Assembly: GCF_029227855.1 (NCBI RefSeq)
Contig: NZ_CP074356.1
DNA: 64,000 bases
DNA from: Escherichia coli
GTDB lineage: Bacteria > Pseudomonadota > Gammaproteobacteria > Enterobacterales > Enterobacteriaceae
Direction: 5' to 3' (one strand)
Position numbers: made by a program. Shown one piece after another: positions 34,301 through 37,300 of this stretch; position 1 is the stretch's first letter; each line of letters opens with the position of its first letter.

Positions 34301-37300
34301 GAAGCACAGGTATTGCGTCTGGCGGCGGCGCTGGAGCAAGGTTCCAGCCATCCTCTGGCACGGGCGATCCTCGATAAAGCAGGCGATATGCAGCTGCCGC
34401 AGGTCAATGGCTTCCGCACATTGCGCGGGCTGGGCGTGAGCGGCGAAGCTGAAGGTCATGCGTTGTTGTTGGGTAATCAGGCGCTGTTAAATGACCAGCA
34501 AGTTGATACTAAAGCGATTGAGGCAGATATTTCAGCTCAGGCATCGCAAGGGGCAACGCCTGTGCTGCTGGCGGTTGACGGGAAAGCGGTAGCCCTGCTG
34601 GCTGTACGCGATCCATTGCGTAGTGATAGCGTGGCGGCGCTGCAACGCCTGCATAAAGCGGGATATCGTCTGGTGATGCTAACCGGGGATAACCCAACCA
34701 CCGCCAATGCGATCGCCAAAGAAGCAGGGATTGATAAGGTGATAGCCGGGGTGCTGCCGGACGGTAAAGCCGAAGCGATCAAACGTCTGCAAAGTGAAGG
34801 ACGTCAGGTGGCAATGGTGGGCGATGGCATTAACGACGCGCCAGCGCTGGCTCAGGCGGATGTCGGCATTGCAATGGGTGGCGGCAGTGATGTTGCCATT
34901 GAAACCGCGGCGATTACCCTGATGCGCCATAGCCTGATGGGTGTTGCGGATGCGCTCGCGATTTCCCGCGCAACGCTGCGCAATATGAAGCAGAACCTGC
35001 TCGGCGCGTTTATCTACAACAGTATCGGTATTCCGGTCGCCGCCGGTATTTTGTGGCCGTTCACCGGTACGCTGCTTAACCCGGTGGTCGCCGGAGCGGC
35101 AATGGCGCTCTCGTCGATTACCGTAGTGAGTAACGCCAACCGGTTACTGCGGTTTAAACCGAAAGAGTGATTGGTATTTACTTAATGCGTTTGTGAGATC
35201 CAGTTCTTGTTGCGCTCCTTTTATGAGTCATGCCATATAAAGTGACTGGCGCAGGGAGCGCGCAGGGGGCGGCCAATCGCCGCCGCCCCCTGCACCCCCG
35301 GGCTCTGGCGAACAAAATCGCCGCTGCGCGGTACCCTCAGCTTATCCCTTGCGGCTACCGGGTCGGGCGCGAGGTAACATATATGGACGCTCCCGGAATG
35401 CAATGCTTTCTTCAGTTATGTAATAAAACGGGTAGGTGCAGCCATATATCCGGTTTCTGATGGGATTTTTATCCCGAACCATGATGAAATCCGCCAGGCA
35501 GGTACCAATCATCCTCTACGGGCTAACTTGCCCTTGTTACCTCTCGGTGTATCCTGCCTGCGGTCTTACCTGTTTTGCCATCTTCTGAAGTCACTTGCAC
35601 CTACCAGGACGTTAACTTTTTTTCAGCACCTCGTCAGATTGACTGACCTTGTGTCAGGCGAGCTGCCGAGGTTGATATTCAGTATTGTGTGACAATATTG
35701 ACCACATGATCCTCGCTGTTTTTGCCGCCATGGCGACAACAGCTACATTGTAGTGCTTCCGCTCAAGGAGTCCCTGAAGCCAGGAATTCTCCTCAACCGC
35801 GCCGTTTCGGTTGACCCAGGCGGTAAGTGCGCGTGCGCCGTGAACCAGCAGGTATCGGAAATATCCATCTCCACGTTTGCTGATTCCTCCCAGTTGCTGT
35901 TTCCCGCCGCTGGAATGTTCCTTTGGTGTCAGCCCCAGCCATGAAGCGAACTGCTTTGCGGTACTGAATTGTCGGGCATTACCCACTGCTGCTACCACAT
36001 AAGTGGCCGTTAGCATGCCAACCCCCGGGATCTTGGCCATTCTCTGGCAGGCTTCCTGCGTTCTATACCAGGAGGCCAGAGCTTCTTCTACCTGTTTAAC
36101 TTGTTCTTCAAGTTCCCGGATATGTTTAGACTGTCTGTAGATGCTGGTTCTGACAAAGGGAGATAAACCATTTTCGCCATCCTCCAGAATGGCTGGCAGC
36201 TCACGGGTTAAATGGTTTTGTCCGGCCGCAATCGTAATACCAAACTCAGCAAGTGTGGCTCTTAAACTATTGGCACAGGCAATCCGCTCACGGATAAGTA
36301 TTCCCCGTTCAGTGTGTAACGCTAAAACGGCCTGCTGCTCTTCGGTTTTTATCTGAACAAAACGCATATTCGGACGGGTTACCGCTTCGCAGATTGCTTC
36401 AGCATCTGCTGCATCCGTCTTGTTCGTTTTCACATAAGGCTTCACATACTGCGGAGGTATGAGTTTTACCTCATGACCATAGCGGGTGAATAATCGCGCA
36501 AAATAATGACTGGATGAGCAGGCTTCCATGCCAATCAGACAAGGTTCCAGTTGAATCACAAACTGAACAAACTTAGCCCGGGTGAGCTTTTTACGCAAAA
36601 TAGTATGGCCTTCATGATCGACACCATGAAGCTGAAAAACGTTCTTTGCCAAGTCGATACCAAGAGTTGATACTTTCATGTGGACGCTCCTAATTTTTCA
36701 GGACGTATTGCAACGATCCAGTCTGGTACTTTGATACCGTAAAATCTGGAGCGTCCATCTCATTATCCCTGTAAAACGCGCCCTCAGCCCACATCCATGT
36801 GGGCTGCCCCGGCCTTCAGGGAACGCCTCGGCGATTTTGACGCCACCAACACCGGTGCAGTCTTTCGTTTCAAAGCAAAAACAATTTTTCGATCATATTT
36901 AAGCTACCACTGAACAAGCCTCATAACTCCATTTGCGCCATCCCTCCCCGCGCGCTAGCATGATATTTCACAAAGGGAGGTCGTATGGATCTGTTGTACC
37001 GGGTAAAAACGCTTTGGGCCGCGCTGCGCGGTAATCATTACACCTGGCCTGCTATCGATATCTCTCTTCCCGGCAATCGCCATTTTCATCTGATTGGCAG
37101 TATTCATATGGGCAGCCACGATATGGCTCCCCTGCCCACCCGTTTGCTCAAAAAGCTCAAAAACGCCGATGCGCTGATCGTCGAGGCGGATGTTTCCACC
37201 AGCGATACGCCTTTTGCTAATTTGCCTGCCTGCGAGGCGCTGGAAGAGCGCATTAGCGAGGAGCAACTCCAAAACCTGCAGCACATTAGCCAGGAGATGG

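What the first reader, a model, noticed from the sequence alone, without database searches (positions are those of the whole stretch)
36680..36860. Structured 5' region of the IS110 element: candidate bridge RNA and RBS-sequestering helix
On the transposase strand, the ~180 nt upstream of the ATG contains a perfect 10 bp pairing between UGGACGCUCC (36748-36757) and GGAGCGUCCA (36681-36690). The latter includes the transposase Shine-Dalgarno, so the helix (56 nt loop) would occlude the ribosome binding site. A second perfect hairpin lies at 36785-36806 (CAGCCCACAT/ATGTGGGCTG), and the same 10-mer TGGACGCTCC recurs at 35384-35393 near the other end. Recently described IS110 elements encode a structured bridge RNA in this position that programs target and donor recognition; this region is a candidate for one.
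Basis: partly seen in the sequence, partly recalled or inferred. Interest (0 to 1): 0.6.

Follow-up and report, generated by a model that had tools for sequence, protein, structure and literature searches.

The report
IS1111 element; bridge RNA lies downstream
The structure upstream of this E. coli transposase gene is a conserved helix that buries the ribosome-binding site, not the guide ("bridge") RNA, which lies downstream of the gene; more than half of the flagged interval is host repeat DNA.

Summary
The sequence facts are real. TGGACGCTCC occurs exactly three times, and the 10-bp helix covering the Shine-Dalgarno sequence exists. The framing is wrong. Comparison with an empty site shows a 1384-bp IS1111-group element (36764->35381, minus strand) inserted in the host repeat TRIP1e. 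Only 85 nt upstream of the ATG belong to the IS. Positions 36765-36860, including the "second hairpin", are host DNA, a TwoAYGGAY-like hairpin.

The bridge/seek RNA is in the 273-nt 3' non-coding region, about 35605-35431 on the minus strand. It forms two stem-loops with strong covariation. Their internal loops match this element's own target and ends, and the same holds in 37 relatives.

The RBS-sequestering helix is supported. A third copy of the subterminal inverted repeat sits on the SD and tracks the left repeat across elements sharing 45-100% protein identity. It closes a conserved two-hairpin 5' UTR. It most likely attenuates transposase translation, but this is inferred; a DNA-site role is not excluded.

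Verdict: an ordinary member of a known class, with a modestly interesting family-wide 5' UTR feature.

The parts
35381..36764 (-). IS1111-group insertion sequence, 1384 bp. A 2-bp 'AT' shared with the target is present at both junctions (36766-36765 and 35380-35379), so the boundaries are ambiguous by 2 bp.
   Evidence: Empty-site alignment. The same 1-1384 span is found at 337 places in 179 of 5426 E. coli genomes. Seven fetched copies at four flank contexts, plus the window copy, sit at the identical position and orientation.
36758..36764 (-). Left terminal extension AATGAGA (7 nt). It is the right-donor sequence recognised by the donor-binding loop and supplies AAT of the predicted junction -10 box.
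   Evidence: A 7-bp left and 3-bp right extension is the stated IS1111 rule (PMC11187229). RDG complementarity is shown.
36748..36757 (-). Left subterminal inverted repeat (IRL) TGGACGCTCC, which is also the 5' arm of helix P1 (anti-SD).
   Evidence: (I1, I8).
36725..36738 (-). 5' UTR hairpin P2, GGUAUCAAAGUACC.
   Evidence: MFE fold. 97.5% of cells paired in 30 elements, with compensatory changes in 3 of 4 pairs (GGUA/UACC, GGCA/UGCC, GGCG/CGCC, GGCC/GGCC).
36701..36719 (-). 5' UTR hairpin P3, GGAUCGUUGCAAUACGUCC. Its sequence varies among relatives but its position is conserved.
   Evidence: MFE folds of 39 elements show a hairpin here with different stem sequences. It was not formally scored.
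36681..36690 (-). Third copy of the inverted repeat ('IRi'), GGAGCGTCCA. It forms the Shine-Dalgarno sequence plus spacer and is the 3' arm of P1.
   Evidence: Conserved in close relatives. Follows IRL in distant ones.
35654..36679 (-). Transposase/recombinase gene, 341 aa. It carries the GLTPKEHSSG motif of IS1111-type enzymes.
   Evidence: ORF. NCBIfam NF033542 'IS110 family RNA-guided transposase', 357.6 bits against a cutoff of 140. Homologues carry PF01548 and PF02371.
35431..35605 (-). Bridge/seek RNA, including a 10-bp basal stem (35605-35596 with 35440-35431).
   Evidence: Fold z = -3.6. Basal stem (I10). Consensus structure and covariation. Model R1 hits 35427-35595 at 167 bits, the only significant hit in the window (this sequence is one of the nine the model was built from, so the score itself is expected).
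35495..35560 (-). Target-binding stem-loop. The outer stem is CAGGCAGG/CCUGCCUG. The RTG GAGGUAACA (35543-35535) is complementary to the right flank TGTTACCTC. The LTG GGAUG (35514-35510) has the same sense as the target ...GGGAT|G.
   Evidence: (I7: 12 nt, 92%). Cognate versus non-cognate test.
35438..35494 (-). Donor-binding stem-loop. The RDG AUUUCAUCAU (35490-35481) pairs with AT+AATGAGAT of the left end. The LDG GAUAUAUGG (35450-35442) has the same sense as the right end ...CCATAT+AT.
   Evidence: Compensatory changes link guide and end in relatives: UUCC with AATGG; ATGTAT, ATCTAT, ACACAT and ATGTAC track each element's own right end.
35381..35403 (-). Right end: predicted -35 box TTGCAT (35403-35398), right subterminal inverted repeat GGAGCGTCCA (35393-35384) and the 3-nt extension TAT. 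Joined to AT+LE it reads TTGCAT-16 nt-TATAAT.
   Evidence: Read directly from the sequence. TTG is conserved at a fixed distance from the right repeat in relatives. Junction promoters are documented for the family (PMC11187229, PMC11208160). The promoter here is inferred.
36765..36861 (-). Host DNA: one half of the TRIP1e repeat.
   Evidence: The TRIP1e position (38 bp after copA, 124 bp before ybaP) matches PMC10888264. Sub-threshold TwoAYGGAY match.
35205..35380 (-). Host DNA: the other half of TRIP1e, including the right target TGTTACCTC.

Best explanation
The flagged interval is two unrelated things placed side by side by an insertion.

Positions 36765-36860 are host DNA, the TRIP1e repeat.

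Positions 36680-36764 are the complete 85-nt left end and 5' UTR of an IS1111-group element. In the RNA, the left subterminal inverted repeat (UGGACGCUCC) pairs with a third copy of the repeat that forms the Shine-Dalgarno region. This helix, P1, closes a compact fold with two internal hairpins, P2 and P3. The fold is a family-wide feature. It most likely keeps transposase translation low by hiding the SD in every transcript that contains the left repeat. That includes read-through transcripts from host promoters and, by my promoter reading, transcripts from the promoter formed at the circle junction.

The guide RNA is elsewhere, in the 3' non-coding region (about 35605-35431, minus strand). 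It has a target-binding loop and a donor-binding loop. Their 5' sides pair with the top strand to the right of the crossover. Their 3' sides pair with the bottom strand to the left of it. This is the IS1111 order.

Shown here: the boundaries, the covariation of the 3' ncRNA, the guide-to-flank matches, and the conservation and tracking of P1 and P2. Inferred: that P1 acts in RNA and lowers translation, the junction promoter and its start site, and expression of the ncRNA.
For: Boundaries and family:
- Empty site and identical junctions at four flank contexts.
- The repeat appears in three copies: an 11-bp perfect subterminal repeat plus the SD copy.
- Non-coding regions of 85 and 273 nt.
- NF033542 at 357.6 bits.

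3' ncRNA:
- RNAalifold on 9 relatives gives two stem-loops. 97.9% of cells are paired against 31-44% when partners are slid, and 15 of 27 pairs show compensatory changes.
- Model R1 gave 79 matches (E <= 0.01) across the 80 loci searched, in all but one of them, all on the transposase strand. All but a few extra copies lie downstream of the gene.
- On those matches 91.4% of cells are paired against 31-45% slid, with 481 double-change cells.
- The RTG loop matches the element's own right flank with a mean longest run of 6.95 nt, against 3.11 for non-cognate flanks. The LTG loop scores 6.51 against 3.31 (37 elements).
- LDG and RDG change together with each element's own ends.

5' UTR:
- P1 dominates the fold, with z = -4.8.
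- SD unpaired probability is 0.002 with IRL present and 0.16 without it.
- GGAGCGTCCA lies directly before the ATG in 7 of 11 close relatives, with near-variants in three more.
- In distant elements the SD-proximal copy follows the local repeat: GGTCGC/GCGACC, GGACGGC/GCCGTCC, GGACTCC/GGAGTC, GGATGGCTCC/GGAGCCAYCC.
- P1 is 88.3% paired in 30 elements, with double changes in 5 of 10 pairs, against 30-47% slid. P2 is 97.5% paired.
- P1 is in the MFE structure of 37 of 39 elements, with mean z = -3.3.
- At the terminal P1 pair, IRi has A in 15 elements and G in 9. Both pair with U.
- No sigma-70-like promoter faces the transposase gene in the integrated copy.
- Precedents: the ISPpu9 5' UTR structure inhibits transposase translation (PMC12288879). 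The ISEc11 mini-element moves with only 50 bp of left end (PMC11187229). If ISEc11 is built like its relatives, that excludes IRi, which lies at 75-100 nt.
Against: - The tracking of IRi with IRL is also what a third DNA binding site would show, because IRL and IRR already change together for DNA-level reasons.
- Most P1 mismatches are C-A. IRi keeps GGAG where IRR has GGGG. They are not G-U wobbles, so there is no wobble signature of RNA-level selection.
- The complementary strand of the left end folds at least as well. It is more stable in 31 of 39 elements, with z = -4.0 against -3.7.
- The predicted junction-promoter start falls in the first 2-4 nt of IRL. The helix therefore would not distinguish native from read-through transcripts the way the IS10 fold-back does.
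- I did not verify that ISEc11 has an IRi beyond bp 50.
- There are no expression data for either RNA.
- Rfam 15 gave no hit for the 3' ncRNA. Family membership rests on my own model, not a curated one.
Confidence: 0.72

Rival explanations
1. One reading: the 5' region (36680-36860) encodes the element's bridge RNA, with loops that recognise the target and donor.
For: The region is strongly structured (z = -4.2). IS110-group elements such as IS621 do carry the bridge RNA upstream (PMC11208160). NCBI annotates the product as an 'RNA-guided transposase'.
Against: Positions 36765-36860 are host DNA. The 85-nt UTR has no match of 6 nt or more complementary to the target. The element has a long subterminal repeat and a long 3' NCR, the IS1111 layout in which the RNA lies downstream. 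The covarying two-loop RNA with cognate guides lies downstream. Model R1 finds nothing in the 5' region.
Confidence: 0.02
2. The SD-proximal repeat copy (36681-36690) is a third DNA binding site for the recombinase or its RNP. It could serve transcriptional autoregulation or act as an alternative or accessory end. On this reading its complementarity to IRL in RNA is a by-product.
For: It is an exact copy of the right repeat in the same orientation. It follows IRL and IRR across lineages, as a shared protein site would. P1 mismatches are C-A rather than wobble. The role of subterminal repeats in IS1111 is not settled (PMC11187229 discussion).
Against: Its position is fixed on the SD, ending 0-6 nt before the start codon, in all lineages. 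It lacks the terminal A/T and the extension that IRL and IRR share (CCAT becomes CCGA, CCAC or CCAA). At that position A or G is kept, and both pair with U. It is embedded in a fold whose internal hairpin P2 covaries. ISEc11 transposes with 50 bp of left end.
Confidence: 0.17
3. The conserved structure belongs to an antisense or outward transcript that starts inside the first codons of the transposase gene and runs out through the left end. This would resemble IS10 RNA-OUT or ISPpu9 Asr9. P1, P2 and P3 would be its mirror image.
For: A plus-strand promoter-like site, TTGCCA-17-GATACT, lies at 36646-36674 and would start near 36681. The bottom strand is more stable in 31 of 39 elements (Wilcoxon p = 6e-6), and sense C-A mismatches become G-U on that strand. 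ISYen1/IS1667, a 68% relative, is reported to supply a constitutive promoter to invA (PMC6478967). ISPpu9 has an antisense RNA over its 5' UTR.
Against: The promoter match is 9 of 12, and 3 such sites against 1.9 expected by chance is unremarkable. Composition-corrected z-scores of the two strands are nearly equal. U-G pairs at the P1 terminus favour the sense strand. The C-A mismatches are explained by the need for GGAG.
Confidence: 0.08

Closest known systems
IS1111-group insertion sequences of the IS110 family. The nearest named relatives are ISYen1/IS1667 (Yersinia, 68% aa) and ISEch3 (Dickeya, 65% aa). ISEc11 is the experimentally studied type.
   Same: A DEDD-type transposase of 341 aa with a GL-P----SG motif; an 11-bp subterminal inverted repeat with 7-nt left and 3-nt right extensions; a short 5' and a long 3' non-coding region; site- and orientation-specific insertion; a promoter-like -35/-10 split across the joined ends.
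   Different: Its target is a different sequence, ACAGGGAT|GTTACCTC in the TRIP1 repeat. I could not assign an ISfinder name. A 2-bp AT is present at both junctions, whereas the family is described as making no duplication.
IS621 bridge RNA (Durrant et al. 2024, PMC11208160) and IS1111 seekRNA (Siddiquee et al. 2024, PMC11187229)
   Same: Two stem-loops with internal loops. Each loop carries one guide that pairs with the bottom strand on the left of the crossover and one that pairs with the top strand on the right. One loop recognises the target and the other the element's joined ends.
   Different: The RNA lies downstream of the gene. The guide order within each loop is reversed relative to IS621, with the top-strand guide 5', as reported for IS1111 seekRNAs. 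Expression and protein binding were not tested here. Rfam 15 returned no family match.
Fold-back inhibition of transposase translation in IS10/IS50-type elements (my own knowledge of the review literature) and the inhibitory 5' UTR structure of ISPpu9 (PMC12288879)
   Same: A sequence near the element's end pairs with the ribosome-binding site of the transposase mRNA and is predicted to block initiation.
   Different: Here the anti-SD arm is the subterminal inverted repeat itself, and the SD arm is a third copy of that repeat, so three sites evolve together. The predicted native start site would retain most of the anti-SD arm, so the helix may not be specific to read-through transcripts. No antisense activator has been identified.
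TRIP1 repeats of E. coli (PMC10888264) and the TwoAYGGAY RNA motif (Rfam RF01731)
   Same: The host DNA flanking the IS is TRIP1e, in exactly the published position. When intact it folds into two hairpins with AUGGAU and AGGGAU loops, as in TwoAYGGAY.
   Different: It scores 31.5 bits, below the gathering score of 43. The second loop is AGGGAU, not AYGGAY. It is not part of the element.

Membership tests
IS1111 group (IS110 family) | DEDD (RuvC-like) N-terminal domain plus Transposase_20 C-terminal domain | tested here: met
   NF033542 at 357.6 bits against a cutoff of 140. A 97%-identical cluster and all listed full-length homologues carry PF01548 and PF02371.
IS1111 group (IS110 family) | Subterminal inverted repeats of about 7-17 bp, perfect or nearly so | tested here: met
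   ATGGACGCTCC/GGAGCGTCCAT, 11 bp, 100% complementary, at 36758-36748 and 35393-35383 (I8).
IS1111 group (IS110 family) | Asymmetric terminal extensions, 7 bp on the left and 3 bp on the right | tested here: met
   AATGAGA before IRL and TAT after IRR, taking the 10-bp repeat and the empty-site boundaries. The rule is quoted from PMC11187229. The boundaries are ambiguous by the shared AT.
IS1111 group (IS110 family) | The longer non-coding region lies downstream of the transposase gene | tested here: met
   273 nt at the 3' end against 85 nt at the 5' end.
IS1111 group (IS110 family) | Insertion at one specific sequence in one orientation | tested here: met
   Seven fetched copies at four flank contexts, plus the window copy, share identical junctions. 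The element is present at this locus in 111 of 5426 genomes and absent in the rest.
IS1111 group (IS110 family) | A circular intermediate whose junction forms a promoter | not testable with these tools
   Only the sequence reading is available: TTGCAT-16-TATAAT across RE+AT+LE. In the distant relative L017 the same construction gives TTGGCA-17-TATAAT.
Bridge RNA / seekRNA (applied to the 3' NCR, 35605-35431) | A conserved structured ncRNA in the long non-coding end, supported by covariation | tested here: met
Bridge RNA / seekRNA (applied to the 3' NCR, 35605-35431) | Loop segments complementary to both strands of the cognate target, changing with the target in relatives | tested here: met
   own versus non-cognate 6.95 against 3.11 nt and 6.51 against 3.31 nt.
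Bridge RNA / seekRNA (applied to the 3' NCR, 35605-35431) | A second loop complementary to the element's joined ends (donor) | tested here: met
   RDG and LDG match the left and right ends and change together with them in relatives. One conserved C-A mismatch lies opposite the first base of the left end.
Bridge RNA / seekRNA (applied to the 3' NCR, 35605-35431) | The RNA is expressed, binds the recombinase and is required for recombination | not testable with these tools
   No transcript or binding data are available.
   Positions 36765-36860 are host DNA. There is no complementarity of 6 nt or more to the target. Model R1 gives no hit. Rfam gives no hit.
RBS-sequestering 5' UTR helix (fold-back type translational control) | Stable pairing that covers the SD or start codon | tested here: met
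   A 10-bp perfect helix plus extension. SD unpaired probability is 0.002.
RBS-sequestering 5' UTR helix (fold-back type translational control) | Pairing maintained in evolution by compensatory change | tested here: inconclusive
   88% of cells are paired and 5 of 10 pairs show double changes across 30 elements. The same pattern is expected if IRi is a DNA copy of the repeat, and the mismatches are C-A, not wobble.
RBS-sequestering 5' UTR helix (fold-back type translational control) | The native transcript lacks the anti-SD arm (IS10-type discrimination against read-through) | tested here: inconclusive
   The start predicted from the junction -10 box falls 1-3 nt into IRL, leaving 7-9 bp of helix (my reading; folds). 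No start-site data are available.
RBS-sequestering 5' UTR helix (fold-back type translational control) | A measured effect on translation | not testable with these tools
   None.
TwoAYGGAY RNA (RF01731), applied to the host repeat that contains the 'second hairpin' | Score at or above the Rfam gathering threshold, with two hairpins bearing AYGGAY loops | tested here: not met
   31.5 bits against 43. The first loop is AUGGAU and the second is AGGGAU. This is a resemblance only.

The most novel reading that the evidence does not exclude
In IS1111 elements generally, the left subterminal inverted repeat does double duty. In DNA it is an element end. In RNA it is an anti-Shine-Dalgarno sequence that pairs with a dedicated third repeat copy. 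This forms a conserved P1-P2-P3 riboregulator that gates transposase synthesis. It might be opened by competition from the identical repeat copy at the 3' end of the same transcript, or by the recombinase or bridge-RNA complex binding the repeat, which would tie translation to the state of the element. I did not find this described in the papers I could search.
Probability: 0.2. Interest if true: 0.55.

Novelty: new member of a known kind. Interest (0 to 1): 0.33.

Why it matters
**Annotation.** IS110-family hits should not be assumed to carry the guide RNA upstream. Subterminal repeats and the lengths of the non-coding ends tell the two layouts apart. Element boundaries need an empty-site check before structure is interpreted.

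**Biology.** This gives a fully parsed natural bridge/seek RNA with its target, a loop in the E. coli TRIP1 repeat, and its donor guides. Thirty-seven relatives show natural retargeting.

**The one less ordinary point.** Every IS1111 relative examined keeps a third repeat copy on its ribosome-binding site inside a conserved fold. If this is a translational brake, it matters to anyone expressing these recombinases from native ends for genome engineering. It would also add a control layer to RNA-guided transposition.

Tried and rejected
- **Rfam.** Rfam 15 at E <= 10 over 34900-37300 returned only noise (mir-611, sR39). No curated bridge RNA family matched, so I built my own model.
- **Genome scan.** Closer relatives had to be fetched one protein at a time.
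- **Finding ISEc11.** I tried to locate it, to check that its repeat copy lies beyond bp 50, using tblastn against plasmids. Nothing near 70% identity was identifiable as ISEc11, so I dropped it. That inference stays unverified.
- **Naming the element.** A search for the repeat sequence in papers gave only unrelated primer hits. J Bacteriol 2003 (PMC219399) is not held.
- **Wobble test for RNA versus DNA selection on P1.** It was uninformative, because the SD requirement for GGAG dominates the mismatches.
- **Sense versus antisense stability.** The raw energies favour antisense, but the composition-corrected z-scores are about equal, so the test is not decisive.
- **The 6-nt match TTTTAC between the 5' UTR and the left target.** Rejected as chance. 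It is part of the conserved P2 flank in relatives that have other targets.
- **Alignment of P3.** MAFFT was too poor for column-wise counting. I relied on per-sequence folds instead.
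Full report
**Context.** The window is E. coli chromosome: copA (32666-35170, +), ybaP (36985-37779, +), ybaK and ushA. Between copA and ybaP on the minus strand lies a 341-aa ORF (36679-35654). It scores 357.6 bits against NCBIfam NF033542, 'IS110 family RNA-guided transposase' (cutoff 140).

**Checking the observation.** The 10-mer TGGACGCTCC occurs exactly three times in 64 kb: 35384-35393 (+), 36681-36690 (+) and 36748-36757 (-). Read on the transposase strand, UGGACGCUCC (36757-36748) is perfectly complementary to GGAGCGUCCA (36690-36681). 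The latter ends one base before the ATG and contains GGAG.
- The pairing extends to 17 nt at 88% and is the top inverted repeat in the region (I1).
- It dominates the predicted fold: -30.2 kcal/mol, z = -4.8, no shuffle as stable.
- The loop is 57 nt.
- The hairpin at 36785-36806 and the third 10-mer copy are also as described (I12 and I8).

**Boundaries.** Megablast of 35100-37100 against 5426 complete E. coli genomes found the full arrangement in 111 genomes and a shorter, uninterrupted version in others.
- The empty site of strain STN0717-11 aligns to window 34800-35380 and 36765-37400 with a 2-bp overlap.
- The insert is therefore 1384 bp (36764->35381 on the minus strand), plus an AT present at both junctions.
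- The same 1384 bp recurs at 337 places in 179 genomes, always full length.
- Seven fetched copies, at copA-ybaP, yegH-relE/asmA, lysO-aqpZ and lysO-yohP, share the window copy's junctions and orientation...TTTTACAGGGAT|AATGAGATGGACGCTCC...GGAGCGTCCATAT|ATGTTACCTCGCGCCC.
- Only 85 nt upstream of the ATG belong to the element. Positions 36765-36860 are host DNA.

**The host DNA.** The interrupted sequence is a repeat of about 270 bp present at several places per genome. Its position, 38 bp after copA and 124 bp before ybaP, identifies it as TRIP1e (PMC10888264).
- When intact it gives a sub-threshold match to Rfam TwoAYGGAY (31.5 bits against a gathering score of 43).
- The IS sits in the loop of the second hairpin (GGGCGCG-UUUUACAGGGAU|GUUACCU-CGCGCCC).

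**Which kind of element.**
- The terminal anatomy is AATGAGA + TGGACGCTCC ... GGAGCGTCCA + TAT. That is an 11-bp perfect subterminal inverted repeat with 7-nt and 3-nt extensions.
- The 5' non-coding region is 85 nt and the 3' one is 273 nt.
- These are the defining features of the IS1111 group (PMC11187229; PMC11208160). Both papers place the guide RNA of that group downstream of the gene.
- The protein carries GLTPKEHSSG, matching the IS1111 motif GL-P----S/TG.
- The nearest named relatives are ISYen1/IS1667 (68% aa) and ISEch3 (65%).

**Finding the guide RNA.** The 3' non-coding region folds with z = -3.6. It contains GAGGUAACA (35543-35535), complementary to the right flank TGTTACCTC (I7).

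I fetched nine relatives from Serratia, Pectobacterium, Yersinia, Pantoea, Citrobacter, Dickeya, Jejubacter and Salmonella, plus an 88%-identical contig from a public sequencing run.
- At the homologous position, each of seven has a different 6-10-nt segment complementary to its own right flank. Examples are TACAGACG for CGTCTGTA and TTCGCCGCGT for ACGCGGCGAA; in the Salmonella relative the match there is only 4 nt.
- About 25 nt further on, each has a segment identical to the end of its own left flank.
- RNAalifold on the aligned region gives two adjacent stem-loops, each with an internal loop. 97.9% of cells are paired against 31-44% with slid partners, and 15 of 27 pairs show compensatory changes.

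A covariance model built from this alignment (R1) behaves as follows.
- It gave 79 matches (E <= 0.01) across the 80 further loci searched, in all but one of them, including elements with only 45-54% protein identity.
- All matches lie on the transposase strand, and all but a few extra copies lie downstream of the gene.
- On those matches 91.4% of cells pair against 31-45% slid (this alignment is fitted to the model).

Across 37 elements with resolved ends:

| Loop | Compared with | Own flank (mean longest run) | Other elements' flanks |
|---|---|---|---|
| 5' side of target loop (RTG) | right flank | 6.95 nt | 3.11 nt |
| 3' side of target loop (LTG) | reconstituted left target | 6.51 nt | 3.31 nt |

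The second loop carries AUUUCAUCAU, which pairs with AT+AATGAGAT of the left end, and GAUAUAUGG, which has the same sense as ...CCATAT+AT of the right end. Both change together with the ends in relatives:
- UUCC with AATGG.
- AUGUAU, AUCUAU, ACACAU and AUGUAC with the corresponding right ends.

This is a target-binding loop followed by a donor-binding loop. The top-strand guide is 5' and the bottom-strand guide is 3', the order reported for IS1111 seekRNAs and the reverse of IS621. A 10-bp basal stem (35605-35596 with 35440-35431) encloses the whole RNA (I10).

**What the 5' region is.** Close relatives keep both the left repeat and GGAGCGTCCA directly before the ATG.

In distant IS1111 elements the repeat sequence differs, and the sequence on the SD follows it:

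| Left repeat | SD-proximal copy |
|---|---|
| GGTCGC | GCGACC |
| GGACGGC | GCCGTCC |
| GGACTCC | GGAGTC |
| GGATGGCTCC | GGAGCCAYCC |

- In a 30-element alignment, helix P1 is 88.3% paired with double changes in 5 of 10 pairs, against 30-47% for slid partners.
- A small internal hairpin, P2, is 97.5% paired with compensatory changes in 3 of 4 pairs.
- Folding each 5' UTR alone puts P1 in the MFE structure of 37 of 39 elements, with the same P1-P2-P3 layout (mean z = -3.3).
- For this copy, the predicted probability that GGAG is unpaired is 0.002 whenever the left repeat is in the transcript, and 0.16 when it is not.

**Mechanism, and what is inferred.** No sigma-70-like promoter faces the transposase gene in the integrated copy.
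- Joining the ends through the shared AT gives TTGCAT-16 nt-TATAAT. The TTG is conserved at a fixed distance from the right repeat.
- In the distant relative L017 the same construction gives TTGGCA-17-TATAAT (my reading).
- Junction promoters are documented for the family.
- A start 5-9 nt after this -10 box would fall 1-3 nt into the left repeat. Native transcripts would then keep most of the anti-SD arm.
- I therefore think P1 is a constitutive brake on transposase translation, not an IS10-style filter against read-through.

This rests on folding and conservation only. Precedent exists in the family: the ISPpu9 5' UTR structure inhibits transposase translation.

**The main rival.** The SD-proximal copy could be a third DNA site for the recombinase.
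- The tracking pattern cannot separate the two ideas, and P1 mismatches are mostly C-A (GGAG kept where the right repeat has GGGG) rather than wobble.
- Against the DNA-site idea, the copy is always on the SD.
- It lacks the terminal base and extension shared by the true ends.
- It keeps A or G opposite U (15 and 9 of 30).
- It sits in a fold with a covarying inner hairpin.
- ISEc11 transposes with 50 bp of left end. I could not confirm that ISEc11 is built like its relatives.

**A third possibility.** An antisense or outward transcript is raised by a weak plus-strand promoter match at 36646-36674 and by the bottom strand folding more stably in 31 of 39 elements. Composition-corrected z-scores are nearly equal (-4.0 against -3.7).

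**Verdict.** The element is a typical IS1111-group insertion sequence with a canonical downstream bridge/seek RNA. The RBS-covering helix is real and turns out to be a family-wide feature. I did not find it described in the papers I could search. It is worth a simple reporter experiment but is not a new kind of system.

Noticed in passing
window 35205-35380 + 36765-36861; L001 516-655; L094, L101, L103: The IS target is the loop of the second AYGGAY-type hairpin of the TRIP1 repeat. TRIP1 gives a sub-threshold TwoAYGGAY match. Relatives in Pectobacterium, Dickeya and Jejubacter also sit immediately after ...GGAT in similar contexts (for example gcCATGGAT| in Dickeya). All keep GGAUG in the left target guide. 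This subgroup may specialise on AYGGAY loops of an orphan RNA motif.
   Followed up: partly
L010 (NZ_OZ546943.1 4737998-4740181), compared with L008: In one isolate the IS has the lysO (TRIP1a) flank on one side and the yohP (TRIP1c region) flank on the other, so a rearrangement junction coincides with the IS. The TRIP1 paper reports many TRIP1a/1c rearrangements and, in the term searches I ran on it, does not mention an IS or transposase.
   Followed up: no
window 36646-36674 (+): A promoter-like site, TTGCCA-17-GATACT, lies inside the first codons of the transposase gene. It faces outward through the left end and would start about at the SD-proximal repeat copy. The relative IS1667/ISYen1 is reported to provide a constitutive promoter for invA in Yersinia.
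   Followed up: no
39 left ends (window 36680-36757 and relatives): The complementary strand of the left-end region is predicted to be more stable than the sense strand in 31 of 39 elements (mean -33.9 against -29.6 kcal/mol, Wilcoxon p = 6e-6). Shuffle-corrected z-scores are similar. This is unexplained. It could be a G/U-richness effect, an antisense RNA, or DNA-level structure.
   Followed up: partly
window 35481-35490 and 35442-35450; A2 and A3 loops: The donor guide keeps a conserved C opposite the first A of the left end, a C-A mismatch, in nearly all elements whose end starts AATG. It pairs perfectly only where the end starts GATG. Both the LTG and the LDG extend by a conserved G one base past the shared dinucleotide. 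In relatives the dinucleotides at the two junctions often differ (for example GT on the left and AT on the right), so the 'core' is not a simple duplication.
   Followed up: partly
L077 2494-2671 and L025 100-275: Two loci carry a second match to the bridge-RNA model apart from the one behind the transposase gene (70 and 63 bits). These are possible solo or tandem ncRNA copies, reminiscent of the ssr9 modules of ISPpu9.
   Followed up: no
L104, L105, L106 (Salmonella and metagenome relatives): These relatives lie about 150 bp downstream of ORFs with RVT_1/GIIM domains (group II intron reverse transcriptase/maturase). This branch may target group II introns.
   Followed up: no
L011 (plasmid NZ_JBSQBR010000002.1, match 1501-1849): A plasmid carries only positions 1011-1359 of the IS at 93% identity. 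That is the transposase 3' end plus the bridge RNA region, without a transposase gene, next to an IS3-family fragment.
   Followed up: no
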